From: Eledone cirrhosa
Taxonomy: Eukaryota
Direction of reading: 5' to 3'
Length of the DNA: 64,000 nucleotides
NCBI GenBank assembly: GCA_964016885.1
Contig: OZ024764.1
Location: forward strand, 28,830,001 to 28,894,000
In this document: in pieces, positions 21,825 through 49,406 of the stretch
How positions within the stretch are numbered: the stretch's first letter is position 1
Layout of the letters: every line of letters begins with the position of its first letter
Translations under genes and position numbers: made by a program
The notes under the pieces: generated by a model
Told to the model about the DNA's origin: nothing
The model's database searches: none
Seen by the model: the letters and a program-made list of their open reading frames with translations, nothing else

Positions 21825-22100
21825 CCCTCTCTCTTTCTCTCCCCTCTCTCTGTTGTTTCATCCCCTTCTCTCCCCCTCTCTCTCTTCCCCTCTATCTCTA
21901 TTCCTCTCTCTCATCCCCTCTCTCTCTCTTCCTCTCTCTCTCTCTCTTCCTCTCTCCCCTCACCCTCTTGTTTCAACTCTCTCCTCGTTTCAACTCTCTC
22001 TCTCTCCTCTCGTTTCAACTCTCTCTCTCTCCTCGTGTTTCAACCATCTCCTCTCTTGTTTCAACTCTCTCACCTCTCGTTTCAACTCTCTCTCTCTGTG
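7921..22100 (-). repeat. Same compound satellite in inverted (TC-rich) orientation; 46-bp blocks of 8-13 copies; monomers ~1.25-2.25 kb
   Basis: Reverse-complement unit CAGAATTATTAGCCACAGGGGCAGAGATGTCCATAACATTACATGT (period 46, e.g. 7921 and 7967); blocks at ~7921, 9666, 11717, 12974, 14734, 15996, 18147, 20391; degenerates into GTTTCAACTCTC repeats at 21780-22100. Confidence 0.97.
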
Positions 22101-22294
22101 TCTCCAATGTGTATACCGATATATATACCGAAGAATGTACATAAACACACATGCATACACGCATGTGTATATATATATACATACATGTGTCTCTCTCTCT
22201 CCCTATATATATGTATATATGTATAAATATGTACATACATATTAGTGTATATATATTGCTATCTATATGCATATTTGTATAATTATACTGTATG

Positions 22295-22467
22295 GTGAAT
22301 TGGCAGTATCGGTAGAGGGTCTGACGCCATGCTTTCCAGCATAGTTACGTCCCTTTACGATCCGAGGTCAACTTTGCCTTTCATCCTTACGGGGTCGATA
22401 AAATAAAGTACCAGTAATGTACTGGTTAATTACTGACCTTGTGCCTAAAATAGAAACAATTATTAGT
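22295..22467 (+). mobile_element. tRNA-derived SINE, cephalopod-like (duplicate at ~42457-42629)
   Basis: TGGCAGTATCGGTAGAG head, body GAGGTCAACTTTGCCTTTCATCCTTACGGGGTCGATAAAATAAAGTACCAGT, ATT tail; homologous to the copy at 23148. Confidence 0.75.
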
Positions 22468-22993
22468 TCAAAGAGAAACCACCATCATAGAGAAACGACC
22501 ATCCTACCTGAAATATTATGTTATCATATTAAATATTTCTTATACTGTCATGTTTTTTCTTTAAAACGATTGCATTTCAATAAAGTGAAGAAAACTATTA
22601 TATACTGTTGTTATATCATTATACTTTAGTTTTAACTTATTATTTCTATGTGTATAAATATAATGTATGTAAGTGTGTTTGAAAATATATAATAATAATA
22701 TGCATGTTTGAAGCAGGGTTCAACTGAAATATCTACACCGGTAACTTAATTAGTGATACACCTTAGGCATAAACTATTTGGCATTCTTTGAAGGAGGTAC
22801 TAGGTTTTTCACTGTCTTAAATGGAGTATACACGCGCACACAATGCATATATATAAATTGTTTTTCTCTGTACAAAGAGATTGACATCATTTCTTAAATC
22901 ATTATTTAGGGTTTTACAACAAAACATATTGTATGTGTAATTATACAAATTGAATTTAAGTATTTATTTTAAAATTTTACATACTCTTTAGTA

Positions 22994-23034
<41 letters not shown>

Positions 23035-23041
23035 TTTGTGA

Positions 23042-23780
23042 TGCCATGCATTGTATTGTACACTTCGACATATGAATTACATTCATGCAACACTTCTCTT
23101 ATCATAGCCATTTTTTGTGGTGAGCAGTCATTATTTGTTGGGACTAGGGCAGTGGATTGGCAGTATCGGTAGAGCGCCAGACACCATGCTTTACAGCATA
23201 GGGTTATGTCCCTTTACGTTCTGGGTTCAAATCCCTCCAAGGTTGACTTTGTTTTCATCCTTATTAGGTCGATAGAATAAAGTACCAGTAATTGCTGGCC
23301 TTGTGCTAGAAACAATTATTTGGACGTACTTCCAATCTGTGCTACATACCTTCGTTCCCATCAATAATATATAACTGGCCATATTGTGGTGTATTTTCTG
23401 CAGGTTACAGAGATGGGGGTGTAGTGATATGTTTGACCCTGAATATGAAAGCTATACGGGCCTCTGCCGGGTGGTAACACCAAATGAAGTGAAATAAATG
23501 TAGTTTTAATTGCAGATGTTTCTGTGAAATCAACTGCTTCCTGGCCTCTTTCAAAGAGATTTCTCAGTCTCTCAGGGTATATTTGCAATGGTGGCAACAC
23601 AACCTTTCCTTTATTACAACAGTTACAATTTTCATTTCTAAATTTCAAAGCTCCACAGTGATCACACGAAACATTCATATCACTAATATGAAATTCTTCT
23701 ACATTTCCATTAATATTAATTGTTGGCCAATTTCTCTTACAACGCTCATTATCCATTCTTCTCTGTCTGAATGTTTTCCA
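23042..23780 (-). mobile_element. Helitron RepHel N-terminal fragment, cut by the satellite-bearing insertion at ~23041
   Basis: ORF 23361-23756 MNVSCDHCGALKFRNENCNCCNKGKVVLPPL...GRGPYSFHIQGQTYH fits the Helitron N-terminal CxxC...CCxxGKVxLP Zn-finger and GPYxFxIxGQxYH motifs. Confidence 0.88.
23148..23318 (+). mobile_element. tRNA-derived SINE inserted antisense into the Helitron ORF (also ~43267-43436 and 55910-56078)
   Basis: A-box-like TGGCAGTATCGG, B-box GGGTTCAAATCC; at the 55910 copy a 16-bp imperfect TSD: ATTATTTGTTGGTACT (55894) and ATTATTTGGTTGTACT (56079). Confidence 0.8.
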
Positions 23781-24089
23781 TTCTGTTGTTTATTATGTAA
23801 TTAAATAGCTCTGTACAATACATAGAGCACTCTTCTTTTCTTTACCTTTTCTATGGAAATACAAGAACAAACATATAAATATATATATATATGTATATAC
23901 ATAAACAAGACTGTTATTGCTCCAACCAGTCTATTTACCTTTGATAACTATCCTAAATATAAATACACCTATACCATACATACATATATCATATATGTTT
24001 TTGATGCCGTGGTATAGCAGAGATAAGCAAGAAGAGAAAAGAAAATGAAAAGGAGAAAAAAAAAGAAGTAAGAAGTCGGGGGAGGGACA

Positions 24090-24315
24090 GACACTTCACC
24101 CCAGTCTAAGTGGTCCCTCAGCCGCAACCTGTGGAAGAAACGTAAAAGCGTTACCTCGGAGCAAGGCCAGAGACACCTGCTACAATAGTCGCCCCTCCTC
24201 ATGAGGCTCCTGTCATCTTTCCTCCCGACTTTATGGAGGAAATCAGCAGTACAGGGACCAAGTATGGCAGAGGTCTCAATGGAGTGGAAGAGGTGAGTCA
24301 GGCCTTGGTACTATC
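24090..24315 (-). pseudogene. Decayed C-terminal end of a CRE-like non-LTR retrotransposon ORF (copies near 26787, 29510, 32225, 44257, 46840)
   Basis: Manual minus-strand translation YQGLTHLFHSIETSAILGPCTADFLHKVGRK / QEPHEEGRLL*QVSLALLRGNAF resembles the CRE tail ET.G..GP...FL...G..GEPRE..L.QR.S.A..RGNA. Confidence 0.65.
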
Positions 24316-24429
24316 TTACTATCCTCTGCATTGCGGGGTGTGGAGCCTAGGTTTGTGGCTGTAGCTATATTTGAACTTTTATATGAAATTTCAGCTTTAC
24401 ATTTTTCACATCATAAAACTTAATCTTAG

Positions 24430-24490
24430 TCTTTTGCAGCTCATCTTGTTTCATCTCGCAGCACACGATTCGGGAACCACTGCTCTAGAG
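24430..24490 (-). mobile_element. hAT/Charlie-like terminus remnant (in every 2.7-kb unit)
   Basis: ...GCAGCACACGATT(T/C)GGGAACCACTG (reverse complement CAGTGGTTCCC) followed directly by CTCTAGAG, which fits the NTCTAGAN target preference; opposite end not found. Confidence 0.55.
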
Positions 24491-24814
24491 ATAGAAAAAG
24501 TATATTTTATGCAGGGCTTCCCTGAGACATAAAAACTATTTCAAGAGATCGACATGGGTAGAAAGGTTGAGAAATGCTGCACAATGTTCTTTGGTTTTTG
24601 TTCACCTTTAAATAATCATGTATAAAATATCGGGTGTGCAAGATTTCATGAAAAGGTATAACATTATTTATGCTGATCTTGCAGGGACTAGCTCCAATTG
24701 AGAGTTGTACCAATTCCCACTAAACTCGAAACTCCTGGACAATATATACATATCTTTATAAGTTCCTGTGTATTGTGTCGCTGTATAATGAAACATAAAT
24801 ATATACCATGCATG

Positions 24815-25062
24815 TCAGTCAGATTTGAACTCACTATATTTGGCGTTTTATAGATATAATTTGTTTGTTAAAACAATTGATTAAATAATAACTAAATAAA
24901 ATTAATTCTACAATCCTGGATAGGGAATGAACTTATAACTGCATAATAGAAGCCATCTATTCGAGCAGTATTGCCATCTAAGCCACCAGGTTACTTACAG
25001 AACTTCATTCAAATATAAAATATAAAATATATGCCAGACATAGTGAGTTCGAATCTGACTGA
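24815..25062. mobile_element. ~248-bp MITE-like element with ~30-bp imperfect terminal inverted repeats (in every 2.7-kb unit)
   Basis: TCAGTCAGATTTGAACTCACTATATTTGGC ... GCCAGACATAGTGAGTTCGAATCTGACTGA; no clear TSD. Confidence 0.65.
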
Positions 25063-25144
25063 TTAGTTGGTCATTGTCCCAGCCAACAGTTTAAATCGCC
25101 AACCAGTAGGTGACATCGACTAGGTTGGGAAAACTTGGTTAAGT

Positions 25145-25288
25145 AGCTCCAGTTATTGCTACGTTAGACATATTCAAGACTTATCGACACTGAATGGAAG
25201 AAAGGTAAAGTTGAACTCAGAGTAAAGAACTGGAAAAATACTGCAAAGAATTCTATCTGATGTTCTAACAATTCTACCAAGTTACCTC
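25145..25288 (-). mobile_element. Older degenerate SINE copy, antisense (in every 2.7-kb unit)
   Basis: TTATCGACACTGAATGGAAGAAAGGTAAAGTTGAACTC...CTAACAATTCTACCAA resembles the reverse complement of the SINE at 22295. Confidence 0.55.
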
Positions 25289-25370
25289 ATGTATATATAT
25301 TTATATCTAGAGATAAGAAGAAAACTGAAAGAAAGAAAAGAAAAAAAATGAGACCTTATATGTAACCCAT

Positions 25371-26165
25371 GTTACAACTCAATATATATATATTTGGGTT
25401 GTAACATATTCCCGCCGGTGAAATAAAAATTTTAATAGAAAAACGGCGGGAATATATGTTACAACCCAATCTATATATATTTGAGTTGTAACATATATTC
25501 CCGCCGTTGAAATAAACATTTTAATAGAAAAACGGCGGGAATATATGTTACAATCCAATGTACATATATTTGGGTTGTAACATATATTCCCGCCGTTGAA
25601 ATAAAAATTTTAATAGAAAAACGGCGGGAATATATGTTACAACGCAATCTATATATATTTGGGTTGTAACATATATTCCCGCCGTCGAAATAAAAATTTT
25701 AATAGAAAAACGGCGGGAATATATGTTACAACCCAATCTACATATATTTGGGTTGTAACATATATTCCCGCCGTTGAAATAAAAATTTTAACAGAAAAAC
25801 GGCGGGAATATATATTACAACCCAAACATATGTAGGTTGGGTTGTAACATATATTCCCGCCGTTTTTCTATTAAAATTTTTATTTCAACGGCGGGAATAT
25901 ATGTTACAACCCAAATATATATAGATTGCGTTGTAACATATATTCCCGCCGTTTTTCTATTAAAATTTTTATTTCAACGGCGGGAATATATGTTACAACT
26001 CAAATATATATAGATTGGGTTGTAACATATATTCCCGCCGTTTTTCTATTAAAATATTTATTTCAACGGCGGGAATATATGTTACAGCCCAAACATATGT
26101 AGGTTGGGTTGTAACATATATTCCCGCCGTTTTTCTATTAAAATTTTTATTTCACCGGCGGGAAT
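25371..26165. repeat. Nested-palindrome minisatellite, 9 x 89 bp (5 forward + 4 inverted)
   Basis: Unit GTTACAACCCAA-(AT)-TTGGGTTGTAAC-ATATAT-TCCCGCCGTT-GAAATAAAAATTTTAATAGAAA-AACGGCGGGA-ATATAT; orientation flips near 25830. Confidence 0.95.
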
Positions 26166-26226
26166 ATATACCCTGAGAGACTGAGAAATCTCTTTCAAAG
26201 AGATTTCTCAGTCTCTCAGGGTATAT
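26166..26226. repeat. Perfect 30-bp-arm fold-back palindrome truncating the Helitron N-terminal ORF (also ~28863, ~31586, ~46229)
   Basis: ATATACCCTGAGAGACTGAGAAATCTCTTT-C-AAAGAGATTTCTCAGTCTCTCAGGGTATAT. Confidence 0.95.
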
Positions 26227-26542
26227 TTGCAATGGTGGCAACATAACCTTTCCTTTATTACAACAGTTACAATTTTCATTTCTAAATTTCAAAGCTCCAC
26301 AGTGATCACACGAAACATTCATATCACTAATATGAAATCCTTCTACATTTCCATTAATATTAATTGTTGGCAATTTCTCTTACGACGCTCATTATCCATT
26401 CTTCTCTGTCTGAATGTTTTCCAGTCTAAGTCTATTTGCATGGTATAATTATATTCTGTTGTTTATTATGTAATTAAATAGCTCTGTACAATATATATAG
26501 CATTCTTCTTTTCTTTACCTTTTCTATGGAAATACAATAACA

Positions 26543-26591
<49 letters not shown>

Positions 26592-28067
26592 ATATACATA
26601 AACAAGACTGTTATTGCTCCAACCAGTCTATTTACCTTTGATAACTATCCTAAATATAAATACACCTATACCATACATACACATATTATATATGTTTTTG
26701 ATGCCGTGGTATAGCAGAGATAAGCAAGAAGAGAAAAGAAAATGAAAATGAGAAAAAAAAAGAAGTAAGAAGTCGGGGGAGGGACAGACACTTCACCCCA
26801 GTCTAAGTGGTCCCTCAGCCGCAACCTGTGGAAGAAACGTAAAAGCGTTACCTCGGAGCAAGGCCAGAGACACCTGCTACAATAGTCGCCCCTCCTCATG
26901 AGGCTCCTGTTGTCTTTCCTCCCGACTTTATGGAGGAAATCAGCAGTACAGGGACCAAGTATGGCAGAGGTCTCAATGGAGTGGAAGAGGTGAGTCAGGC
27001 CTTGGTACTATCTTACTATCCTTTGCATTGCGGGGTGTGGAGCCTAGGTTTGTGGCTGTAGCTATATTTGAACTTTTATATGAAATTTCAGTTTTATATT
27101 TTTCACATCTTAAAACTTAATCTTAGTCTTTTGCAGCTCATCTTGTTTCATCTCGCAGCACACGATTTGGGAACCACTGCTCTAGAGATAGAAAAAGTAT
27201 ATTTTATGCAGGGCTTCCCTGAGACATAAATACTATTTCAAGAGATCGACATGGGTAGAAAGGTTGAGAAATGCTGCACAATGTTCTTTGGTTTTTGTTC
27301 ACCTTTAAATAATCATGTATAAAATATCGGGTGTGCAAGATTTCATGAAAAGGTATAACATTATTTATGCTGATCTTGCAGGGACTAGCTCCAATTGAGA
27401 GTTGTACCAATTCCCACTAAACTCGAAACTCCTGGACAATATATACATATCTTTATAAGTTCCTGTGTATTGTGTCGCTGTATAATGAAACATAAATATA
27501 TACCATGCATGTCAGTCAGATTTGAACTCACTATATTTGGCGTTTTATAGATATAATTTGTTTGTTAAAACAATTGATTAAATAATAACTAAATAAAATT
27601 AATTCTACAATCCTGGATAGGGAATGAACTTATAACTGCATAATAGAAGCCATCTATTCGAGCAGTATTGCCATCTAAGCCACCAGGTTACTTACAGAAC
27701 TTCATTCAAATATAAAATATAAAATATATGCCAGACATAGTGAGTTCGAATCTGACTGATTAGTTGGTCATTGTCCCAGCCAACAGTTTAAATCGCCAAC
27801 CAGTAGGTGACATCGACTAGGTTGGGAAAACTTGGTTAAGTAGCTCCAGTTATTGCTACGTTAGACATATCCAAGTCTTATCGACACTGAATGGAAGAAA
27901 GGTAAAGTTGAACTCAGAGTAAAGAACTGGAAAAATACTGCAAAGAATTCTATCTGATGTTCTAACAATTCTACCAAGTTACCTCATGTGTATATATTTA
28001 TATCTAGAGATAAGAAGAAAACTGAAAGAAAGAAAAGAAAAAAAATGAGACCTTATATGTAACCCAT

Positions 28068-28862
28068 GTTACAACTCAATATATATATATTTGGGTTGTA
28101 ACATATTCCCGCCGGTGAAATAAAAATTTTAATAGAAAAACGGCGGGAATATATGTTACAACCCAATCTATATATATTTGAGTTGTAACATATATTCCCG
28201 CCGTTGAAATAAAAATTTTAATAGAAAAACGGCGGGAATATATGTTACAATCCAATCTACATATATTTGGGTTGTAACATATATTCCCGCCGTTGAAATA
28301 AAAATTTTAATAGAAAAACGGCGGGAATATATGTTACAACGCAATCTATATATATTTGGGTTGTAACATATATTCCCGCCGTCGAAATAAAAATTTTAAT
28401 AGAAAAACGGCGGGAATATATGTTACAACCCAATCTACATATATTTGGGTTGTAACATATATTCCCGCCGTTGAAATAAAAATTTTAACAGAAAAACGGC
28501 GGGAATATATATTACAACCCAAACATATATAGGTTGGGTTGTAACATATATTCCCGCCGTTTTTCTATTAAAATTTTTATTTCAACGGCGGGAATATATG
28601 TTACAACCCAAATATATATAGATTGCGTTGTAACATATATTCCCGCCGTTTTTCTATTAAAATTTTTATTTCAACGGCGGGAATATATGTTACAACTCAA
28701 ATATATATAGATTGGGTTGTAACATATATTCCCGCCGTTTTTCTATTAAAATATTTATTTCAACGGCGGGAATATATGTTACAACCCAAAAATATGTAGG
28801 TTGGGTTGTAACATATATTCCCGCCGTTTTTCTATTAAAATTTTTATTTCACCGGCGGGAAT
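28068..28862. repeat. Nested-palindrome 89-bp array, copy 2
   Basis: Near-identical to 25371-26165. Confidence 0.95.
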
Positions 28863-29239
28863 ATATACCCTGAGAGACTGAGAAATCTCTTTCAAAGAGA
28901 TTTCTCAGTCTCTCAGGGTATATTTGCAATGGTGGCAACATAACCTTTCCTTTATTACAACAGTTACAATTTTCATTTCTAAATTTCAAAGCTCCACAGT
29001 GATCACACGAAACATTCATATCACTAATATGAAATTCTTCTACATTTCCATTAATATTAATTGTTGGCAATTTCTCTTACGACGCTCATTATCCATTCTT
29101 CTCTGTCTGAATGTTTTCCAGTCTAAGTCTATTTGCATGGAATAATTATATTCTGTTGTTTATTATGTAATTAAATAGCTCTGTACAATATATATAGCAT
29201 TCTTCTTTTCTTTACCTTTTCTATGGAAATACAAGAACA

Positions 29240-29314
<75 letters not shown>

Positions 29315-30790
29315 ATATACATAAACAAGACTGTTATTGCTCCAACCAGTCTATTTACCTTTGATAACTATCCTAAATATAAATACACCTATACCATACA
29401 TACACATATTATATATGTTTTTGATGCCGTGGTATAGCAGAGATAAGCAAGAAGAGAAAAGAAAATGAAAATGAGAAAAAAAAAGAAGTAAGAAGTCGGG
29501 GGAGGGACAGACACTTCACCCCAGTCTAAGTGGTCCCTCAGCCGCAACCTGTGGAAGAAACGTAAAAGCGTTACCTCGGAACAAGGCCAGAGACACCTGC
29601 TACAATAGTTGCTCCTCCTCATGAGGCTCCTGTTGTCTTTCCTCCAGACTTTATGGAGGAAATCAGCAGTACAGGGACCAAGTATGGCAGAGGTCTCAAT
29701 GGAGTGGAAGAGGTGAGTCAGGCCTTGGTACTATCTTACTATCCTCTGCATTGCGGGGTGTGGAGCCTAGGTTTGTGGCTGTAGCTATATTTGAACTTTT
29801 ATATGAAATTTCAGTTTTATATTTTTCACATCTTAAAACTTAATCTTAGTCTTTTGCAGCTCATCTTGTTTCATCTCGCAGCACACGATTTGGGAACCAC
29901 TGCTCTAGAGATAGAAAAAGTATATTTTATGCAGGGCTTCCCTGAGACATAAAAACTATTTCAAGAGATCGACATGGGTAGAAAGGTTGAGAAATGCTGC
30001 ACAATGTTCTTTGGTTTTTGTTCACCTTTAAATAATCATGTATAAAATATCGGGTGTGCAAGATTTCATGAAAAGGTATAACATTATTTATGCTGATCTT
30101 GCAGGGACTAGCTCCAATTGAGAGTTGTACCAATTCCCACTAAACTCGAAACTCCTGGACAATATATACATATCTTTATAAGTTCCTGTGTATTGTGTCG
30201 CTGTATAATGAAACATAAATATATACCATGCATGTCAGTCAGATTTGAACTCACTATATTTGGCGTTTTATAGATATAATTTGTTTGTTAAAACAATTGA
30301 TTAAATAATAACTAAATAAAATTAATTCTACAATCCTGGATAGGGAATGAACTTATAACTTCATAATAGAAGCCATCTATTCGAGCAGTATTGCCATCTA
30401 AGCCACCAGGTTACTTACAGAACTTCATTCAAATATAAAATATAAAATATATGCCAGACATAGTGAGTTGGAATCTGACTGATTAGTTGGTCATTGTCCC
30501 AGCCAACAGTTTAAATCGCCAACCAGTAGGTGACATCGACTAGGTTGGGAAAACTTGGTTAAGTAGCTCCAGTTATTGCTACGTTAGACATATTCAAGAC
30601 TTATCGACACCGAATGGAAGAAAGGTAAAGTTGAACTCAGAGTAAAGAACTGGAAAAATACTGCAAAGAATTCTATCTGATGTTCTAACAATTCTACCAA
30701 GTTACCTCATGTGTATATATTTATATCTAGAGATAAGAAGAAAACTGAAAGAAAGAAAAGAAAAAAAATGAGACCTTATATGTAACCCAT

Positions 30791-31585
30791 GTTACAACTC
30801 AATATATATATATTTGGGTTGTAACATATTCCCGCCGGTGAAATAAAAATTTTAATAGAAAAACGGCGGGAATATATGTTACAACCCAATCTATATATAT
30901 TTGAGTTGTAACATATATTCCCGCCGTTGAAATAAAAATTTTAATAGAAAAACGGCGGGAATATATGTTACAATCCAATCTACATATATTTGGGTTGTAA
31001 CATATATTCCCGCCGTTGAAATAAAAATTTTAATAGAAAAACGGCGGGAATATATGTTACAACGCAATCTATATATATTTGGGTTGTAACATATATTCCC
31101 GCCGTCGAAATAAAAATTTTAATAGAAAAACGGCGGGAATATATGTTACAACCCAATCTACATATATTTGGGTTGTAACATATATTCCCGCCGTTGAAAT
31201 AAAAATTTTAACAGAAAAACGGCGGGAATATATATTACAACCCAAACATATATAGGTTGGGTTGTAACATATATTCCCGCCGTTTTTCTATTAAAATTTT
31301 TATTTCAACGGCGGGAATATATGTTACAACCCAAATATATATAGATTGCGTTGTAACATATATTCCCGCCGTTTTTCTATTAAAATTTTTATTTCAACGG
31401 CGGGAATATATGTTACAACTCAAATATATATAGATTGGGTTGTAACATATATTCCCGCCGTTTTTCTATTAAAATATTTATTTCAACGGCGGGAATATAT
31501 GTTACAACCCAAAAATATGTAGGTTGGGTTGTAACATATATTCCCGCCGTTTTTCTATTAAAATTTTTATTTCACCGGCGGGAAT
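30791..31585. repeat. Nested-palindrome 89-bp array, copy 3
   Basis: Near-identical to 25371-26165. Confidence 0.95.
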
Positions 31586-31962
31586 ATATACCCTGAGAGA
31601 CTGAGAAATCTCTTTCAAAGAGATTTCTCAGTCTCTCAGGGTATATTTGCAATGGTGGCAACATATCCTTTCCTTTATTACAACAGTTACAATTTTCATT
31701 TCTAAATTTCAAAGCTCCACAGTGATCACACGAAACATTCATATCACTAATATGAAATTCTTCTACATTTCCATTAATATTAATTGTTGGCAATTTCTCT
31801 TACGACGCTCATTATCCATTCTTCTCTGTCTGAATGTTTTCCAGTCTAAGTCTATTTGCATGGAATAATTATATTCTGTTGTTTATTATGTAATTAAATA
31901 GCTCTGTACAATATATATAGCATTCTTCTTTTCTTTACCTTTTCTATGGAAATACAAGAACA

Positions 31963-32029
<67 letters not shown>

Positions 32030-34029
32030 ATATACATAAACAAGACTGTTATTGCTCCAACCAGTCTATTTACCTTTGATAACTATCCTAAATATAAATA
32101 CACCTATACCATACATACACATATTATATATGTTTTTGATGCCGTGGTATAGCAGAGATAAGCAAGAAGAGAAAAGAAAATGAAAATGAGAAAAAAAAAG
32201 AAGTAAGAAGTCGGGGGAGGGACAGACACTTCACCCCAGTCTAAGTGGTCCCTCAGCCGCAACCTGTGGAAGAAACGTAAAAGCGTTACCTCGGAACAAG
32301 GCCAGAGACACCTGCTACAATAGTTGCCCCTCCTCATGAGGCTCCTGTTGTCTTTCCTCCAGACTTTATGGAGGAAATCAGCAGTACAGGGACCAAGTAT
32401 GGCAGAGGTCTCAATGGAGTGGAAGAGGTGAGTCAGGCCTTGGTACTATCTTACTATCCTCTGCATTGCGGGGTGTGGAGCCTAGGTTTGTGGCTGTAGC
32501 TATATTTGAACTTTTATATGAAATTTCAGTTTTATATTTTTCACATCTTAAAACTTAATCTTAGTCTTTTGCAGCTCATCTTGTTTCATCTCGCAGCACA
32601 CGATTTGGGAACCACTGCTCTAGAGATAGAAAAAGTATATTTTATGCAGGGCTTCCCTGAGACATAAAAACTATTTCAAGAGATCGACATGGGTAGAAAG
32701 GTTGAGAAATGCTGCACAATGTTCTTTGGTTTTTGTTCACCTTTAAATAATCATGTATAAAATATCGGGTGTGCAAGATTTCATGAAAAGGTATAACATT
32801 ATTTATGCTGATCTTGCAGGGACTAGCTCCAATTGAGAGTTGTACCAATTCCCACTAAACTCGAAACTCCTGGACAATATATACATATCTTTATAAGTTC
32901 CTGTGTATTGTGTCGCTGTATAATGAAACATAAATATATACCATGCATGTCAGTCAGATTTGAACTCACTATATTTGGCGTTTTATAGATATAATTTGTT
33001 TGTTAAAACAATTGATTAAATAATAACTAAATAAAATTAATTCTACAATCCTGGATAGGGAATGAACTTATAACTTCATAATAGAAGCCATCTATTCGAG
33101 CAGTATTGCCATCTAAGCCACCAGGTTACTTACAGAACTTCATTCAAATATAAAATATAAAATATATGCCAGACATAGTGAGTTGGAATCTGACTGATTA
33201 GTTGGTCATTGTCCCAGCCAACAGTTTAAATCGCCAACCAGTAGGTGACATCGACTAGGTTGGGAAAACTTGGTTAAGTAGCTCCAGTTATTGCTACGTT
33301 AGACATATTCAAGACTTATCGACACCGAATGGAAGAAAGGTAAAGTTGAACTCAGAGTAAAGAACTGGAAAAATACTGCAAAGAATTCTATCTGATGTTC
33401 TAACAATTCTACCAAATTACCTTATGTATATATATTTATATCTAGAGATAAGAAGAAAACTGAAAGAAAGAAAAATGAGACCTTATATGTAAACCATGAC
33501 TACCACCATCTCTGGTATCACCCACCAGACCACCATGAAAGATACAAACATCTGCTTTTTTAATATTTATAAGCCTACTTTCAATATTAAAGTAATTAAC
33601 ATGTGGTGTTGTTCATGCCTTTCTCTATGTTATTGGTAAAAAATAAAGTATTTAAACCTCAAATTGTGTTATTCAAATATGCTTGCTTATGTAATTATAA
33701 ATGTCGCAGAATACACACACATATATAGATGTGAAAATATTCAGGACCCCAACGGCTGTGCTACTGCCGTTTCGACATCTATATATATATCTTTTAGTCC
33801 TAGGCTCTTTCAGCGCAGAAAGAATTCTCCAATAATCACAACCAGCTAATGGTGCCCAGTGGAAGCACTTTAGTCGAATTATAACCCCAACGATCACGAT
33901 TAGCGGCGGCTTTTTCGAGTCTGAGGTTGACTGCCAGATATATATATATATATCTATATATATATATTTTTTTTTATACTTTGCTAGAATCCCGGAGAAC
34001 AACAGAAAGATGCTGAGTTCAGAGTTTAA

Positions 34030-35290
34030 AAAACATGTCCCCCTTTAATATAAAAACAATCCGAGTCTTGTAAAAGTGTTATTACTGTAATATAAAGTAG
34101 AAACCCTTTATTTAAACAAAGCTGAGATGCAGCGATCATCAAAGCAAACCCCAAAATGTAAACAAACTTCTCGCAGGTGCTGCCAGATACACGATAACAT
34201 GTGTATACGAAGTGTAACAGGGAGTTGGGTCGTATTATATGACTTTCAAATTGACCCCTATTATATTCAAATTATCCCCTGTGGGGCGTGCACCCCACGT
34301 TGAGAATCCCTCATAAATAAATATATGTGAGTGTGTTGCTATGACTGCTATTTCTAGCAGGTTTACTGCAGTCCTGTAGACGCACAACAAAAACCGGAAG
34401 TGGAAGCCATTAAAAAACTTTGGCTTAAAATCAGGCAAAAGTTTTTTAACAATTTGCCAAGAAAGATAACTCTTGTCTTACTTAATCGCAAAAATCGAGG
34501 CAAAAAATTTTGCGGGTGTGCAGTTTGTTTGGTGTATTTGACTGCTATTTCTAGCATATATGGACACTTTAGAAATAGCAGCGAAACACGGGAAACATAA
34601 GAAAGAAGGACACACACGTATATATATATACATATATATATGCACAGATATATACATTTAAATATATATATTTATATATACATACACGCGCGCACACACA
34701 CCTATACGTAGATATGGGTGTGTGTATAGCTGGTATATATATATATGTATGGGTGAGTGTATAGCTGGTATATATATATATATATAGGTGTGTGTCCTTC
34801 TTTCTGCTGTTTTCCGTTTTTCGCTGCTATTTCTAAAGTGTCCATACATGCTAGAAATAGCAGTCAAATACACCAAACAAACTGTACACCCACAAAATTT
34901 TTGCCTCGATTTTTGCGATTAAGTAAGACAAGAGTTATCTTTCTTGGCAAATTGTTAAAAAACATTTGCCTGATTTTAAGCCAAAGTTTTTTAATGGCTG
35001 CCACTTCCGGTTTTTGTTGTGCGTCTACAGGACTGCAGTAAACCTGCTAGAAATAGCAGTCATAGCAACACACTCACATATATTTATTTATGAGGGATTC
35101 TCAACGTGGGGTGCACGCCCCACAGGGGATAATTTGAATATAATAGGGGTCAATTTGAAAGTCATATAATACGACCAAGCTTCCAGATACACTTCGTATA
35201 CACATGTTATTTGAAGTTTGTTTTGATCATCGCTGCATCGCAGCTTTGTTTAAATAAAGGGTTTCTACTTTATATTACAGTAATAAAAGT
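34030..35290. repeat. Long inverted repeat (fold-back-like element): arms ~34030-34620 and ~34788-35290 around a microsatellite-rich spacer
   Basis: Nearly the same spurious ORF appears at 34235-34438(-) and 34966-35169(+); repeated motif GCTAGAAATAGCAGTC; a further inverted copy of the outer arm lies at ~36620-36755. Confidence 0.9.
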
Positions 35291-35422
35291 TTTACTTCGT
35301 CTACACATGTTATCGTGTATCCGGCAGCACCTATGGGCTGTTTGTTTATACTTTGGTGTTAATTTTGATCATCGCCTCATCGCAGGTTTGTTTAATTAAA
35401 GGTTGCGAGGGGGATCACTGAC

Positions 35423-35488
<66 letters not shown>

Positions 35489-35567
35489 AAGACACACACA
35501 TATATATACATACACGCAGACATACACCCGTGTGTATGTGTATGTTCGTGTGTGCGTGTCTTTGGCT

Positions 35568-35628
<61 letters not shown>

Positions 35629-35744
35629 GTGTATATATATACAGACACACACTGTTGTTTCTTGATTTTTAGCTGCTGTTTCTAAAGTGTCTATTAATAT
35701 ATGCTAGAAATAGCAGTCAAGGGAACATTTACGTATATATATGT

Positions 35745-36130
35745 AAGGACAGTAACACCTGCTGCAACAGGCATCCAACCTCGTGGGACTCCATCCTCAG
35801 ACGGGCCACAGACACTGCGATGTTGCGGAGGAGCTCGGCTGTAATGGGTCCAAGTTGGCCCGGGGTCTCGACGGCGGCTGGTGCTTAGAAGAGGCTCCAG
35901 GACAAACACCGGAATTTGTTTATTTTATGTTCATCTGCGAGACGGGCAGCGATGCTGGGGTTTGTGGATCTACCTCCTTCGAATGGGAAGAGGGTGATTC
36001 CCTCGGGGTGCTTGCCATCTCCGCGGCCTAAGCCTGCTGACTCCAGTTGAGATGGAAATTCAGCTGCGTCCAGGCTTCTTCTCACTATGTCGTTGAGAGC
36101 ATTTATGTGGCTCACACACGCGGAGGCCAA
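35745..36130 (-). pseudogene. CRE-like restriction-like endonuclease (RLE) fragment (copies 50803-51188 and 57704-58089)
   Basis: HINALNDIVRRSLDAAEFPSQLE(S/P)AGLGRGDGKHPEGITLFPF...AARLADEHKINKF, then frameshifted PAAVETPGQLGPITAELL, resembling ALNDII.RAL..LEP.GL.R.DGKRPDG.T..PW...AE..K..KY...PxAVET.G. Confidence 0.8.
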
Positions 36131-36764
36131 GGCGTTGGGCTACTCCGATGCGAGTTCAATCATCATCAAGAATTTATTTGAATTGAAAGGTCACTAAACT
36201 AATATAGGAGTGTCATTTAAAAATAAGGTAAACAGAAATAGTTACACCGGTAACATAATTACTGTGACACCGGTAGTTCACTAACAAATCATTTCACGTT
36301 CGTCTCTAACAGGTAATGTTTTAATTTGCTCTCCATGTTGGGGAGTAACTGTAGTTTGGCTTGCTAGGGGTCATACATCTTCATACACACACACATACTA
36401 TATATATATATACAAAGGAAAGGAAGATAAACAAATATCAGAGGATTTGACCGGCTTCTTCCTCTTGGCACCTGTAGCCACCATGACGTATAAGTATAAA
36501 TACATATCTATCTATCTATATATATATCATCATTTTCATTTTACGTCTGCTTTTCCCTGTTTGCAAGGGTGGGGCATATATATATATATCATCATCATTA
36601 TACATCCACTTTTCCCCGCTTGGCAGCACCTACGAGAAGTTTGTTTTGATCATCGCTGCATCGTAGCTTTGTTTAAATAAAGGGTTTCTACTTTATATTA
36701 CAGTAATAATACTTTCAGAATACTCGGATTGTTTTTATATTAAAGGGGAACATAAACATATTTT

Positions 36765-41900: not shown

Positions 41901-43917
41901 CATCCCCCCTCTCCCTCTTCCTCTCTCTCTCTTCCTCTCTCTCTCTCTTTCTCTCTCTCTCTTCCTCTCTCTCTCTCTTCCTCTCTCTCTCTCTCTTCCT
42001 CTCTCTCTCTCTTTCACACTCTATCTCCGACTCGTTTCATCACTCTCTCCCCTCTCTCCCCTCACCCTCTTGTTTCAACTCTCTCCTCGTTTCAACTCTC
42101 TCTCCTCTCGTTTCAACTCTCTCTCTCTCTCTCCTCTCGTTACAACTCTCTCTCTCTCTCCTCTCGTTTCAACTCTCTCTCTCTTTTCTCGTTTCAACTC
42201 TCTCCTCTCTTGTTTCAACTCTCTCACCTCTCGTTTCAACTCTTTCTCTCTGTGTCTCCAATGTGTAATAAACCGTGACTCATATATATATACCGAAGAA
42301 TGTACATAAACACATACATACACGCATGTGTATATATATATACATACATGTGTCTCTCTCTCTCCCTATATATATGTATATATGTATAAATATGTACATA
42401 CATATTAGTGTATATATATTGCTATCTATATGCATATTTGTATAATTATACTGTATGGTGAATTGGCAGTATCGGTAGAGGGTCTGACGCCATGCTTTCC
42501 AGCATAGTTACGTCCCTTTACGATCCGAGGTTAACTTTGCCTTTCATCCTTACGGGGTCGATAAAATAAAGTACCAGTAATGTACTGGTTAATTGCTGGC
42601 CTTGTGCCTAAAGTAGAAACAATTATTAGTTCAAAGAGAAACCACCATCCTACCTGAAATATTATGTTATCATATTAAATATTTCTTATACTGTCATGTT
42701 TTTTCTTTAAAACGATTGCATCTCAATAAAGTGAAGAAAACTATTATATACTGTTGTTATATCATTATACTTTAGTTTTAACATTTCTATGTGTATAAAT
42801 ATAATGTATGTAAGTGTGTTTGAAAATATATAATAATAATATGCATGTTTGAAGCAGGGTTCAACTTAAATATCTATACCAGTAACTTAATTAGTGTTAC
42901 ACCTTAGGCATAAACTATTTGGCATTCTTTGAAGGAGGTACTAGGTTTTTCGCTGTCTTAAATGGAGTATACACGCGCACACGATGCATATATATAAATT
43001 GTTTTTCTCTGTACAAAGAGATTGACATCATTTCTTAAATCATTATTTAGGGTTTTACAACAAAACATATTGTATGTGTAATTATACAAATTGAATTTAA
43101 GTATTTATTTTAAAATTTTACATACACTTTAGTAGTATATATATATATATTCATTTGTGATGCCATGCATTGTATTGTACACTTCGACATATGGATTATA
43201 TTCATGCAACACCTCTCTTATCATAGCCATTTTTTGTGGTGAGCAGTCATTATTTGTTGGGACTAGGGCAGTGGATTGGCAGTATCGGTAGAGCGTCAGA
43301 CACCATGCTTTGCAGCATAGGGTTATGGCCCTTTACGTTCTGGGTTCAAATCCCTCTAAGGTTGACTTTGTTTTCATCCTTATGAGGTCGATAGAATAAA
43401 GTATCAGTAATTGCTGGCCTTGTGCCAGAAACAATTATTTGGTTGTACTTCCAATCTGTGCTACACACCTTCGTTCCCATCAATAATATATAACTGGCCA
43501 TATTGTGGTGTATTTTCTGCAGGTTACAGAGATGGGTGTGTATTGATATGTTTGACCCTGAATATGAAATCTATACGGGCCTCTGCCGGGTGGTAACACC
43601 AAATGAAGTGAAATAAATGTAGTTTTAATTGCAGATGTTTCTGTGAAATCAACTGCTTCCTGGCCTCTTTCAAAGAGATTTCTCAGTCTCTCAGGGTATA
43701 TTTGCAATGGTGGCAACACTACCTTTCCTTTATTACAACAGTTACAATTTTCATTTCTAAATTTCAAAGCTCCACAGTGATCACACGAAACATTCATATC
43801 ACTAATATGAAATTCTTCTACATTTCCATTAATATTAATTGTTGGCCAATTTCTCTTACGACGCTCATTATCCATTCTTCTCTGTCTGAATGTTTTCCAT
43901 TCTAAGTCTATTTGCAT
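38976..43917 (-). mobile_element. Internally deleted, frameshifted Helitron RepHel, interrupted by a 2.6-kb insertion and a SINE
   Basis: Zn-finger 43480-43917; NLPTSN..RDIII region ~40400-40570; QYLVDAYMKVEGCRL ~40140-40195; IDRIVSAEIP..MIHRPCG..GYPEYRR..DNRNVVPFN..HINVEVC..KYLFKY ~39660-40030; GHD..DEIRTYL..RYVS.PEA 39271-39657; Pif1-like CNGTR..QFPLRLSYAMTINK..GQ..GQLYVAFSRV 38976-39311. Confidence 0.93.
40575..43157. other. 2.6-kb insertion in the Helitron holding one satellite monomer (46-bp block + TC block), a SINE and AT-rich DNA
   Basis: Empty site GCTGTT-TGA-TGCCATG at 55797-55812; filled site flanked by TGA at 40572-40574 and 43158-43160; the right part matches ~21700-23041. Confidence 0.9.
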
Positions 43918-44018
43918 GGAATAATTATATTCTGTTGTTTATTATGTAATTAAATAGCTCTGTACAATACATAGAGCATTCTTCTTTTCTTTACCTTTTC
44001 TATGGAAATACAAGAACA

Positions 44019-44061
<43 letters not shown>

Positions 44062-46606
44062 ACATACATAAACAAGACTGTTATTGCTCCAACCAGTCTA
44101 TTTACCTTTGATAACTATCCTAAATATAAATACACCTATACCATACATACATATATCATATATGTTTTTGATGCCATGGTATAGCAGAGATAAGCAAGAA
44201 GAGAAAAGAAAATGAAAATGAGAAAAAAAAAGAAGTAAGAAGTCGGGGGAGGGACAGACACTTCACCCCAGTCTAAGTGGTCCCTCAGCCGCAACCTGTG
44301 GAAGAAACGTAAAAGCGTTACCTCAGAGCAAGGCCAGAGACACCTGCTACAATAGTCGCCCCTCCTCATGAAGCTCCTGTCGTCTTTCCTCCCGACTTTA
44401 TGGAGGAAATCAGCAGTACAGGGACCAAGTATGGCAGAGGTCTCAATGGAGTGGAAGAGGTGAGTCAGGCCTTGGTACTATCTTACTATCCTCTGCATTG
44501 CGGGGTGTGGAGCCTAGGTTTGTGGCTGTAGCTATATTTGAACTTTTATATGAAATTTCAGTTTTATATTTTTCACATCATAAAACTTAATCTTAGTCTT
44601 TTGCAGCTCATCTTGTTTCATCTCTCAGCACACGATTTGGGAACCACTGCTCTAGAGATAGAAAAAGTATATTTTATGCAGGGCTTCCCTGAGACATAAA
44701 AACTATTTCAAGAGATCGACATGGGTAGAAAGGTTGAGAATGCTGCACAATGTTCTTTGGTTTTTGTTCACCTTTAAATAATCATGTATAAAATATCGGG
44801 TGTGCAAGATTTCATGAAAAGGTATAACATTATTTATGCTGATCTTGCAGGGACTAGCTCCAACTGAGAGTTGTACCAATTCCCACTAAACTCGAAACTC
44901 CTGGACAATATATACATATCTTTATAAGTTCCTGTGTATTGTGTCGCTGTATAATGAAACATAAATATATACCATGCATGTCAGTCAGATTTGAACTCAC
45001 TATATTTGGCGTTTTATAGATATAATTTGTTTGTTAAAACAATTGATTAAATAATAACTAAATAAAATTAATTCTACAATCCTGGATAGGGAATGAACTA
45101 GAAGCCATCTATTCGAGCAGTATTGCCATCTAAGCCACCAGGTTACTTACAGAACTTCATTCAAATATAAAATATAAAATATATGCCAGACATAGTGAGT
45201 TCGAATCTGACTGATTAGTTGGTCATTGTCGCAGCCAACAGTTTAAATCGCCAACCAGTAGGTGACATCGACTAGGTTGGGAAAACTTGGTTAAGTAGCT
45301 CCAGTTATTGCTACGTTAGACATATTCAAGACTTATCGACACTGAATGGAAGAAAGGTAAAGTTGAACTCAGAGTAAAGAACTGGAAAAATACTGCAAAG
45401 AATTCTATCTGATGTTCTAACAATTCTACCAAGTTACCTTATGTATATATATTTATATCTAGTGATAAGAAGAAAACTGAAAGAAAGAAAAGAAAAAAAA
45501 TGAGACCTTATATGTAACCCATGTTACAACTCAATATATATATATTTGGGTTGTAACATATTCCTGCCGGTGAAATAAAAATTTTAATAGAAAAACGGCG
45601 GGAATATATGTTACAACCCAATCTATATATATTTGAGTTGTAACATATATTCCCGCCGTTGAAATAAAAATTTTAATAGAAAAACGGCGGGAATATATGT
45701 TACAATCCAAGCTACATATTTTTGGGTTGTAATATATATTCCCGCCGTTGAAATAAAAATTTTAATAGAAAAACGGCGGGAATATATGTTACAACCCAAC
45801 CTATATATGTTTGGGTTGTAATATATATTCCCGCCGTTTTTATGTTAAAATTTTTATTTCAACGGCGGGAATATATGTTACAACCCAAATATATGTAGAT
45901 TGGGTTGTAACATATATTCCCGCCGTTTTTCTATTAAAATTTTTATTTCAACGGCGGGAATATATGTTACAACCCAAATATATGTAGATTGGGTTGTAAC
46001 ATATATTCCCGCCGTTTTTCTATTAAAATGTTTATTTCAACGGCGGGAATATATGTTAAAACCCAAATATATATAGATTGGGCTGTAACATATATTCCCG
46101 CCGTTTTTCTATTAAAATTTTTATTTCAACGGCGGGAATATATGTTACAACCTAAATATATATAGATTGGGTTGTAACATATATTCCCGCCGTTTTTCTA
46201 TTAAAATTTTTATTTCAACGGCGGGAATATATACCCTGAGAGACTGAGAAATCTCTTTCAAAGAGATTTCTCAGTCTCTCAGGGTATATTTGCAATGGTG
46301 GCAACACAACCTTTCCTTTATTACAACAGTTACAATTTTCATTTCTAAATTTCAAAGCTCCACAGTGATCACACGAAACATTCATATCACTAATATGAAA
46401 TCCTTCTACATTTCCATTAATATTAATTGTTGGCCAATTTCTCTTACGACGCTCATTATCCATTCTTCTCTGTCTGAATGTTTTCCAGTCTAAGTCTATT
46501 TGCATGGAATAATTATATTCTGTTGTTTATTATGTAATTAAATAGCTCTGTACAATACATAGAGCATTCTTCTTTTCTTTACCTTTTCTATGGAAATACA
46601 AGAACA

Positions 46607-46644
<38 letters not shown>

Positions 46645-48120
46645 ATATACATAAACAAGACTGTTATTGCTTCAACCAGTCTATTTACCTTTGATAACTA
46701 TCCTAAATATAAATACACCTATACCATACATACACATATCATATATGTTTTTGATGCCGTGGTATAGCAGAGATAAGCAAGAAGAGAAAAGAAAATGAAA
46801 ATGAGAAAAAAAAAGAAGTAAGAAGTCGGGGGAGGGACAGACACTTCACCCCAGTCTAAGTGGTCCCTCAGCCGCAACCTGTGGAAGAAACGTAAAAGCG
46901 TTACCTCGGAGCAAGGCCAGAGACACCTGCTACAATAGTCGCCCCTCCTCATGAGGCTCCTGTCGTCTTTCCTCCCGACTTTATGGAGGAAATCAGCAGT
47001 ACAGGGACCAAGTATGGCAGAGGTCTCAATGGAGTGGAAGAGGTGAGTCAGGCCTTGGTACTATCTTACTATCCTCTGCATTGCGGGGTGTGGAGCCTAG
47101 GTTTGTGGCTGTAGCTATATTTGAACTTTTATATGAAATTTCAGTTTTATATTTTTCACATCTTAAAACTTAATCTTAGTCTTTTGCAGCTCATCTTGTT
47201 TCATCTCGCAGCACACGATTTGGGAACCACTGCTCTAGAGATAGAAAAAGTATATTTTATGCAGGGCATCCCTGAGACATAAAAACTATTTCAAGAGATC
47301 GACATGGGTAGAAAGGTTGAGAAATGCTGCACAATGTTCTTTGGTTTTTGTTCACCTTTAAATAATCATGTATAAAACATCGGGTGTGCAAGATTTCATG
47401 AAAAGGTATAACATTATTTATGCTGATCTTGCAGGAACTAGCTCCAATTGAGAGTTGTACCAATTCCCACTAAACTCGAAACTCCTGGACAATATATACA
47501 TATCTTTATAAGTTCCTGTGTATTGTGTCGTTGTATAATGAAACATAAATATATACCATGCATGTCAGTCAGATTTGAACTCACTATATTTGGCGTTTTA
47601 TAGATATAATTTGTTTGTTAAAACAATTGATTAAATAATAACTAAATAAAATTAATTCTACAATCCTGGATAGGGAATGAACTTATAACTTCATAATAGA
47701 AGCCATCTATTCGAGCAGTATTGCCATCTAAGCCACCAGGTTACTTACAGAACGTCATTCAAATATAAAATATAAAATATATGCCAGACATAGTGAGTTC
47801 GAATCTGACTGATTAGTTGGTCATTGTCCCAGCCAACAGTTTAAATCGCCAACCAGTAGGTGACATCGACTAGGTTGGGAAAACTTGGTTAAGTAGCTCC
47901 AATTATTGCTACGTTAGACATATTCAAGACTTATCGACACCGAATGGAAGAAAGGTAAAGTTGAACTCAGAGTAAAGAACTGGAAAAATACTGCAAAGAA
48001 TTCTATCTGATGTTCTAACAATTCTACCAAATTACCTTATGTATATATATTTATATCTAGAGATAAGAAGAAAACTGAAAGAAAGAAAAAAAAAAATGAG
48101 ACCTTATATGTAACCCATGA
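43665..48120. repeat. Two-copy version of the 2.7-kb tandem repeat
   Basis: Shared ORFs at 44136 and 46719; one palindromic array between the copies. Confidence 0.95.
45523..46228. repeat. Nested-palindrome 89-bp array, copy 4 (3 forward + 5 inverted)
   Basis: Same unit as 25371; flip point near 45805. Confidence 0.93.

Positions 48121-49354: not shown

Positions 49355-49406
<52 letters not shown>

What the first reader, a model, noticed from the sequence alone, without database searches (positions are those of the whole stretch)
25371..26165. Palindrome of palindromes: 89-bp double-hairpin array with a movable inversion centre
Seen: each unit contains two alternating inverted repeats, and the array as a whole is mirrored (variants CCGGTGAAAT, TTGAGTTG and AACGCAAT recur reversed in the second half). 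Arrays 1-3 are 5+4 units; array 4 is 3+5, and the TTTTAACA variant that is forward in arrays 1-3 is reversed in array 4. Inference: repeated snap-back synthesis or flip-flop inversion, loosely reminiscent of rolling-hairpin ends. The array occurs only at duplication junctions of the 2.7-kb unit.
Basis: partly seen in the sequence, partly recalled or inferred. Interest (0 to 1): 0.7.

Follow-up and report, generated by a model that had tools for sequence, protein, structure and literature searches.

The report
Folded-back dumbbell repeat at duplication junction
A short run of 89-base hairpin units sits, folded back on itself, at the joint of a 1.9-kb tandem duplication; it was likely left by one DNA-copying accident, then multiplied along with the surrounding DNA, and its middle has flipped once, so it is likely a mutation scar rather than a mobile or switching element.

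Summary
Four arrays (5+4, 5+4, 5+4, 3+5 units) lie at U–U junctions of a 1.87-kb segment. Each unit is one 28-bp arm in alternating orientation with 11- and 22-nt loops (a dumbbell). All four arrays share identical ends, so they come from one event. At the right end a 24-nt inverted copy of the flank grew from a pre-existing 6-bp hairpin; both ends have 3–4-bp microhomology. That is an inverted-triplication-type, template-switch junction carrying a templated insert. Arrays 1–3 match a five-unit run folded back once; iterated snap-back predicts 7–8 orientation switches, not the one seen. The centre is not mobile: the same centre module lies in a 124-bp block that is flipped in array 4 (1 mismatch reversed). 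The mirror is loose (p=0.11). Reads from other samples confirm both junctions and the centre, and end- and centre-specific variants are not diluted, so no large free family is needed. Units differ by 5–6% against 1.3–1.6% for the duplication, so an older donor is likely; it was not found. The scan had not noted this sequence elsewhere, but read other arrays of this genome similarly. Nested dyad satellites are known (Tribolium).

The parts
25369..26169 (.). Array 1: 9 units of [A hairpin 35 bp, TATAT, B hairpin 44 bp, TATAT] = [28-bp arm X, 11-nt loop, X reversed, 22-nt loop]; 10 forward loops then 8 reversed
25369..25371 (+). 3-bp microhomology (ATG) shared by the right end of segment U and the array
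   Evidence: copies without an array (33498, 48119) continue differently after this ATG
25725..25848 (.). Central block A5-B5-A6 holding the single orientation switch (B5 forward, A6 reversed); B5 is the loop of the long predicted hairpin
26166..26226 (.). Perfect 30-bp-arm inverted repeat with 1-nt loop: 24 nt of inverted flank copy (first 4, ATAT, shared with the array) added to a pre-existing 6-bp inverted repeat at 26190-26202
   Evidence: ancestral form with 6-bp arms at 23546, 43665, 56310
23546..25371 (+). Segment U, first copy of block I, with ancestral left flank (no array before it)
26190..28068 (+). Segment U, second copy
28066..28866 (.). Array 2 (5+4); identical to array 3
28887..30791 (+). 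Segment U, third copy
30789..31589 (.). Array 3 (5+4)
31610..33498 (+). Segment U, fourth copy, followed by ancestral right flank (no array)
43665..45523 (+). Segment U, first copy of block II, ancestral left flank
45521..46232 (.). Array 4 (3+5 units), same two junctions as arrays 1-3
45788..45911 (-). The central block of arrays 1-3 in reversed orientation (1 mismatch of 124 to array 2, 28422-28545)
46253..48119 (+). Segment U, second copy of block II, followed by ancestral right flank

Best explanation
The array is likely the scar of one template-switching repair event that duplicated a 1.87-kb segment (U) and left a folded-back copy of a short hairpin minisatellite at the joint; the whole block was then likely multiplied passively, and in one lineage the array's middle is flipped. 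Inferred order: (1) synthesis leaves the right end of U and enters a pre-existing run of dumbbell units at a 3-bp microhomology; (2) after five units the strand turns round on its own inverted arms (B5 as loop) and copies back as far as the mirror of B1, giving 10 forward and 8 reversed loops; (3) it jumps at ATAT onto the opposite strand near U's start and copies 20 further bases; (4) it turns again at a pre-existing 6-bp inverted repeat and runs through U a second time. Later unequal exchange made U-array-U-array-U-array-U in block I. Recombination or template switching between the array's own inverted arms, in a slipped register, inverted the central block and lost a unit in array 4. Shown: the anatomy, the identical junctions, the ancestral empty sites, the 6-to-30-bp arm extension, the reversed block. 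Inferred: the order of steps, that they happened in one event, and that an older donor array exists or existed elsewhere.
For: Single origin: identical letters before and after 4 of 4 arrays; U copies with ancestral, array-free left ends at 23546, 43665, 56310 and right ends at 33498, 48119. Right junction: perfect 30-bp arms where the ancestral site has 6-bp arms; about 1% of background positions (174 of 17000) start such a short inverted repeat. This is the 'snap-back' signature of SD-MMEJ (PMC5728401, passages) and fits the 6-bp reverse-complement junctions of small inverted triplications (PMC13334657, results part 2 of 3 and discussion); DUP-TRP/INV-DUP second junctions carry 1-9-bp microhomology and sometimes templated insertions (PMC11293582, passages). 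One switch per array matches 'five units then one fold-back' for the first 18 loops, and B1/B9 and A4/A7 share private variants in that register. Arrays change no faster than flanks after duplication (5 of 794 = 0.6% against 0.86%), yet units differ by 5.0-6.2% against 1.3-1.6% between the first-made U copies: the unit diversity is older than the duplication. Reads: left junction, right junction and centre joint seen in other samples. The end-unit variant makes up 12-19% of B depth in whole-genome contigs against 20% (7 of 35) in the window, so there is no large diluting pool of free units.
Against: The donor was not found and no genome was held. The mirror test is not significant (p = 0.11); A2/A8 match in a register one unit off and A6/A9 share variants within one half, so extra conversions or unit gains and losses must be assumed. 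Array 4 cannot be made from arrays 1-3 by a single inversion: its outer reversed units carry other variants. Inversion of the distal half of a tandem run, or copying of one donor from both broken ends, would give the same pattern as step 2. The centre-specific variant was 46 of 350 reads in X8 and 16 of 235 in X7 but 0 of 49 in X9 (14% expected). Low-depth contigs in X2/X3 show diverged single hairpins with other neighbours or another loop, so a small dispersed family may exist. Contig depths are crude sums, and 227 and 44 loose ends were not shown.
Confidence: 0.62

Rival explanations
1. The array is a non-autonomous foldback or MITE-derived transposon (or a stack of 78-bp elements with 28-bp terminal inverted repeats) that inserted here and provoked the duplication.
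For: Head-to-head arms made of tandem units are the foldback layout (recalled). Low-depth diverged relatives in X2/X3: a 346-bp contig with 6 substitutions and 5 gaps over 73 window bases and other sequence before it, and a contig at depth 11.7 with the same arms round a different loop.
Against: The two ends are not inverted copies of each other: the left starts in an A hairpin, the right ends after a B hairpin. No short target-site duplication; the flanking direct repeat is 1.87 kb. One insertion site in 4 of 4 arrays; share of X2 contigs that run on unlike the stretch 0.01. No transposase among 57 frames scanned against Pfam.
Confidence: 0.12
2. The units were made by rolling-circle copying of an 89-nt covalently closed dumbbell (DNA, or a rod-like circular RNA reverse-transcribed from both ends of a break, as earlier notes propose for retrozyme arrays of this genome).
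For: The unit folds as a circle into a closed rod: 28-bp stem, two loops, -28.7 kcal/mol. Rolling-circle copying would give uniform loop orientation within each half, as seen. Both array ends lie at the central ATAT of the stem, on opposite strands. Head-to-head twin-primed arrays are reported in notes on this genome (unchecked).
Against: Copies of one circle should be near-identical at birth, but units differ by 5-6% against 1.3-1.6% for the duplication. No hammerhead core letters in the unit; no Rfam match at a gathering score in 22000-64000 (140 listed, all below it). Not inserted in a TA microsatellite, no dispersed copies, flanking repeat 1.87 kb.
Confidence: 0.12
3. The array grew in place by repeated snap-back (rolling-hairpin-like) synthesis from local sequence.
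For: A snap-back is visible at the right junction. The last 20 bases of U resemble the arm a little (13 matches, one 3-base gap; 4% of 3388 background windows score as high).
Against: Iterated snap-back gives 7-8 switches in 17-18 loops; 1 is seen. The 40 bases round the ancestral breakpoint do not stand out (9% of 3376 windows score as high). The GC-rich half of the arm and the 22-nt loop have no source in the window.
Confidence: 0.06
4. The central block is an actively switching (recombinase-driven) cassette with a function.
For: Two orientations of one block exist; every arm pair is an inverted repeat; each arm holds an 8-bp motif that resembles an E2F/DP site (motif name recalled; 69 copies in the window, all in the arrays).
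Against: Only two states, which follow the block I / block II split; arrays 1-3 keep one orientation through two further duplications. No gene or recombinase nearby in the frames scanned. The inversion ends are not sharp (tract 124 to about 216 bp).
Confidence: 0.03
5. Assembly or library artefact (fold-back chimeric reads).
For: Palindromes can make chimeric reads (general knowledge); the centre joints in X7 come from 2 start places each.
Against: Both junctions are in contigs and raw reads of other samples; the halves differ by 11-14 substitutions in every register, which a read fold-back would not give; copies differ as the flanks do.
Confidence: 0.02

Closest known systems
DUP-TRP/INV-DUP rearrangements (PMC11293582, passages) and small inverted triplications, SIT (PMC13334657, abstract, results part 2 of 3, discussion)
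   Same: Direct duplication with a short inverted third copy; one junction at a short inverted repeat (6 bp, the SIT mode), the other with a few bases of microhomology and a templated insertion. The unit itself (arm, loop, reversed arm, loop, arm) has the SIT layout at the small end of its range.
   Different: The inverted third copy is only 30 bp while the insert is 0.8 kb and itself folded back; SITs were described as single, unstable events in yeast and tumours, not as tandemly multiplied monomers fixed in a germline.
Tribolium madens TmSat2 'cassettes' and macro-dyad symmetries (PMC13081366, passages)
   Same: Dyad symmetry inside the monomer and again across the array; one conserved inversion point, fixed borders, variable unit numbers on each side; spread as a cassette.
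   Different: TmSat2 has 704-bp monomers, multi-kb arrays and thousands of pericentromeric cassettes; here 89-bp monomers, 0.7-0.8-kb arrays, one origin, carried by a segmental duplication, and the centre block itself occurs in two orientations.
Snap-back SD-MMEJ / polymerase-theta end joining (PMC5728401, passages)
   Same: A short inverted repeat near the break primes synthesis, the insert becomes part of a longer inverted repeat, and a new microhomology closes the joint.
   Different: Those inserts are short and local; the 0.8-kb array needs an outside template, and the outcome is a 1.87-kb duplication.
Foldback transposons and parvovirus rolling-hairpin ends (both recalled, not read)
   Same: Head-to-head arms built of repeats; flip and flop forms of a hairpin loop.
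   Different: No symmetric termini, no short target-site duplication, no dispersal, no transposase or Rep gene; loop orientation comes in two long runs, not alternating.

Membership tests
DUP-TRP/INV-DUP or small inverted triplication | Segment present three times, the middle copy inverted, inside a direct duplication | tested here: met
   First 30 bp of U: forward at 23546, inverted at 26166-26195, forward at 26197-26226 within U copy 2
DUP-TRP/INV-DUP or small inverted triplication | One junction at a pre-existing inverted repeat | tested here: met
   6-bp arms, 1-nt loop in the ancestral site; 30-bp arms at the junction
DUP-TRP/INV-DUP or small inverted triplication | Other junction with microhomology, with or without templated insertion | tested here: met
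   ATG and ATAT at the two ends of the array; template of the insert not found
DUP-TRP/INV-DUP or small inverted triplication | All junctions formed in one replicative event | not testable with these tools
   Left and right junctions occur together in 4 of 4 arrays in the window; run X1 shows the left junction but not the right, which may be a hole or an intermediate state
Foldback / MITE DNA transposon | Termini that are inverted copies of each other | tested here: not met
   Left end starts in an A hairpin, right end follows a B hairpin
Foldback / MITE DNA transposon | Short target-site duplication | tested here: not met
   Empty sites show a 1.87-kb duplication and a flank-derived inverted copy instead
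Foldback / MITE DNA transposon | Dispersed copies with unrelated flanks | tested here: inconclusive
   No high-depth alternative flank among the loose ends shown; a few low-depth diverged contigs; 227 and 44 loose ends not shown; no genome to search
Rolling-hairpin replicon (parvovirus-like) | Alternating flip and flop loops and a Rep/HUH gene | tested here: not met
   One switch against 7-8 predicted; no such domain in 57 frames; no exact arm match in viral contigs
Retrozyme / Penelope twin-primed array | Hammerhead ribozyme in each unit | tested here: not met
   No CTGA on either strand of the unit; no ribozyme among 140 Rfam rows
Retrozyme / Penelope twin-primed array | Circular RNA of unit length | not tested
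Macro-dyad satellite (Tribolium type) | Dyad symmetry in monomer and across array with a conserved inversion point | tested here: met
   the same centre pair in all 4 arrays and in reads of X7
Macro-dyad satellite (Tribolium type) | Multi-kilobase arrays in (peri)centromeric megabase regions | tested here: not met
   Arrays are 0.7-0.8 kb; chromosomal position unknown

The most novel reading that the evidence does not exclude
The 89-mer is the linear print of a tiny covalently closed dumbbell (28-bp stem, two loops) that was rolling-circle copied and captured at a break from both ends, that is, a fossil of a minimal hairpin-capped extrachromosomal DNA or rod-like circular RNA; or, short of that, the first traced case of a minisatellite whose monomer is a small inverted triplication multiplied in tandem.
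Probability: 0.12. Interest if true: 0.7.

Novelty: new variant of a known kind. Interest (0 to 1): 0.3.

Why it matters
As read here it is a well-preserved record of a multi-step template-switch event, with both empty sites still in the window, and it shows how a repeat built of alternating inverted arms can turn its middle over without changing its period. It extends nested-dyad ('palindrome of palindromes') repeats, which PMC13081366 says are documented at array level only in Tribolium, to a much smaller scale in another animal, and here a plain mutational origin explains the conserved centre. It would matter more if the donor proved to be a free 89-nt dumbbell or if orientation varied within individuals; neither is shown.

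Tried and rejected
No whole genome was held, so no genome-wide search for the unit. Exact arm patterns: 0 matches in viral contigs and metagenome contigs. Earlier findings by sequence: 0 windows for the array and for U; none near; none by words. Rfam: 140 rows, all below gathering score, almost all generic microRNA hairpins. ARAGORN: 0 genes. Pfam on 57 frames picked from 22200-26600, 33400-40600, 49100-50000, 55500-56000 and 56650-64000 (not all frames listed): 3 hits, none near an array. Local origin of the arm from the left flank: weak (4% and 9% of background), rejected as evidence. Mirror register by permutation: p = 0.11, not counted as proof. Loose ends in RAD reads at 25428, 26053, 26145, 26274 and 26285 have mixed letters and sit at AATT sites: library cut sites, rejected as new flanks. 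Hypermutability of the array after duplication: rejected (0.6% against 0.86%). Paper searches with no hit: snap-back + templated insertion + tandem duplication + inverted; alternating inverted + tandem repeat + hairpin + satellite; E2F + motif + minisatellite. Searches listed nothing on this repeat (listings only); one search gave no paper linking inverted triplications to minisatellite birth beyond PMC13334657. Supplements were not read.

Full report
What is there. The window is AT-rich, repeat-filled animal DNA; earlier notes on the same genome call it probably an octopus (unchecked; a SINE-like repeat in the flanks looks cephalopod to me, recalled). Four arrays of an 89-bp unit start at 25371, 28068, 30791 and 45523. 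Each unit has a 35-bp hairpin A and a 44-bp hairpin B joined by TATAT. More simply, it is one 28-bp arm X written alternately forward and backward, with an 11-nt and a 22-nt loop between (28+11+28+22 = 89). Folded as a circle it is a closed rod, -28.7 kcal/mol. Because arms alternate, only the loops carry orientation, and a piece can be inverted between any two opposed arms without changing the period. Arrays 1-3 have 10 forward loops then 8 reversed (B: 5+4), array 4 has 7 then 9 (B: 3+5). Array 1 with its flanks folds at -437.9 kcal/mol, z = -63, as one long hairpin from B1 to B9 with B5 as loop.

One origin, not four. Arrays 2 and 3 are identical and array 1 differs at 5 of 794 bases; the 40 bases before and 70 after are the same for all four. 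The arrays sit between copies of a 1.87-kb segment U: U-array-U-array-U-array-U at 23546-33498 and U-array-U at 43665-48119, two blocks of a larger segmental duplication. Outer U ends keep the ancestral, array-free flanks (23546, 43665, 56310; 33498, 48119). On 1741 gap-free columns the first-made U pairs differ by 1.26-1.55%, the later copies in block I by 0.4-1.0%. So the array arrived with the first duplication of U and was copied passively afterwards.

The junctions. At the left, U and the array share ATG; the last 20 bases of U resemble the arm only weakly (4% of 3388 background windows score as high; 9% of 3376 for the 40 bases round the breakpoint). At the right, the array is followed by an inverted copy of U's beginning. 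The ancestral site has a 6-bp inverted repeat with a 1-nt loop; at the junction it has grown to perfect 30-bp arms (26166-26226), the outer ATAT shared with the array; about 1% of background positions start such a 6-bp repeat (174 of 17000). In SD-MMEJ snap-back, a short inverted repeat primes synthesis and the insert becomes part of a longer inverted repeat (PMC5728401, passages). Small inverted triplications have reverse-complement junctions of mode 6 bp (PMC13334657, abstract, results part 2 of 3, discussion). Human DUP-TRP/INV-DUP events have one junction in an inverted repeat and one with 1-9-bp microhomology, some with templated insertions (PMC11293582, passages). The locus has this layout in miniature, with a 0.8-kb insert.

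How the array was folded. A symbolic model gives 7 switches in 17 loops for iterated full snap-back and 8 in 18 for stepwise snap-back, but 1 for a five-unit run folded back once at its last B loop, whose first 18 loops are exactly those of arrays 1-3. In that register B1/B9 and A4/A7 share private variants. The support from variants is modest: p = 0.11 by permutation, none in array 4, and A2/A8 match one unit off (a 125-bp exact inverted match), which suggests pairing in slipped registers. Inversion of a distal half, or copying of one donor from both broken ends, would look the same; I cannot tell these apart.

The 'movable centre'. The 124-bp block A5-B5-A6 of array 2 matches array 4 (45788-45911) with 1 mismatch reversed, 23 forward, next best placement 15; the reversed match runs 38 and 54 bases further. 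The pair of modules at the switch is thus the same physical pair in both array types, turned over. Array 4 also has one unit fewer and other variants in its outer reversed units, so at least an inversion, a unit loss and some conversions or mutations separate the types. Two states that follow the block I / block II split do not show ongoing flipping.

Age and donor. Modules within an array differ by 5.0-6.2%, three to four times the divergence of the first U pair, while arrays have changed no faster than flanks since (0.6% against 0.86%), and arrays 2 and 4 differ at 1 of their first 188 bases. The unit diversity was therefore present at the start, which points to an older donor array (inference). 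The unit has itself the form of a small inverted triplication, whose direct repeats could seed tandem growth (inference; PMC13334657 notes slippage at such repeats).

Reads. Four of 9 listed runs hold 18-34% of the array's words (2 studies, labels A and B). In X2 and X3 (one sample) contigs cover U's right end at depth 1488 and 1249 and the left junction at 607 and 479; U's start is at 1959 in X2: about 31-41% of U copies carry the junction, and the block is multi-copy (single-copy depth not measured; the tool warns that depth is no copy number). The right junction is in X3 (one contig), X2, X8 and X9; X8 and X9 show 101 and 26 reads with the ancestral flank. X7 has 16 and 7 reads that switch strand inside hairpin A, the centre joint, from 2 start places each. 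The end-unit variant is 12-19% of B depth in X2/X3 against 7 of 35 in the window; the centre variant is 46 of 350 reads in X8, 16 of 235 in X7, 0 of 49 in X9, against 5 of 35. A large pool of free units would dilute both; it is not needed. In X2 the share that runs on unlike the stretch is 0.01. Against a strict junction-only reading: a 346-bp contig at depth 2.6-3.9 with a diverged single B hairpin and other sequence before it, a contig joining an arm to a SINE-like piece (depth 3.7-4.8), a contig at 11.7 with another loop between the same arms, and three contigs leaving the B loop; 227 and 44 loose ends were not shown. These may be the donor's kin. Run X1 (label A) has the left junction with array 4's B1 variant at depth 6.7, a unit at 7.6, U's start at 11.6 with the ancestral flank, and no right junction: possibly a low-copy state, possibly holes.

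What it is not. No symmetric termini or short target-site duplication; no transposase, Rep or recombinase in 57 frames scanned (3 hits, all far off); no hammerhead letters; no Rfam match at a gathering score; no exact arm match in viral or metagenome contigs. The Penelope/retrozyme twin-priming route that earlier notes propose for other head-to-head arrays of this genome lacks its marks here.

Comparison and verdict. Nested dyad symmetry with a conserved inversion point, fixed borders and variable unit numbers is described for Tribolium madens TmSat2 cassettes, and monomers with inverted segments for T. brevicornis and Trichogramma as cited there (PMC13081366, passages; I was led to it by note e1-9912050). 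I found no paper on a tandem repeat whose monomer is a two-loop dumbbell at a duplication junction (listings only), which is weak evidence of absence. The finding is real and neat but best read as one template-switch scar, passively amplified, with one later inversion: a new variant of known kinds, interest 0.3.

Noticed in passing
window 1-22100, centre at about 7918-7921: A compound satellite (46-bp unit blocks alternating with GA-rich 24-26-bp runs) switches strand head-to-head at about 7920; GC and AT skews reverse there, with arms of at least 7.9 kb and about 14 kb. This is closer in scale to the Tribolium macro-dyads than the array studied.
   Followed up: partly
window 34194-35210 and 48825-50254: A roughly 1.0-1.4-kb element with 330-440-bp inverted arms and the same outer ends in both blocks; a rearranged copy lies at 56794-57288. 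Possibly a foldback or MITE-like element or another inverted junction.
   Followed up: partly
window 48105-48185, minus strand: The ancestral left breakpoint lies at the edge of a decayed tRNA-like or SINE-head sequence (resemblance recalled; ARAGORN finds no gene). The copy at 33498 lacks about 24 bases right after the same ATG.
   Followed up: no
all four arrays: Each 28-bp arm holds GGCGGGAA, which resembles an E2F/DP binding motif (name recalled); 69 copies in the window, all in the arrays. One paper search found nothing.
   Followed up: partly
window 60091-60900, minus strand: Two adjacent frames match the reverse transcriptase family RVT_1 (E 2e-08, 3e-07): a broken retroelement.
   Followed up: no
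window 38979-39326, minus strand: Short match to Pif1 helicase 2B domain (E 8e-07), likely a Helitron remnant inside the duplicated block; the stretch has copies near 54200-54550 and 63550-63900.
   Followed up: no
window 25181-25320 (and each U copy): A high-copy SINE-like piece with many other flanks in the reads, 50-190 bases before the left junction.
   Followed up: no
window 22001-40574, 40592-55805, 55803-64000: The whole region is a patchwork of 95-98% identical segmental copies with a 55-bp minisatellite of variable length (38146, 53159); read depth says U is highly multi-copy in organism B.
   Followed up: partly
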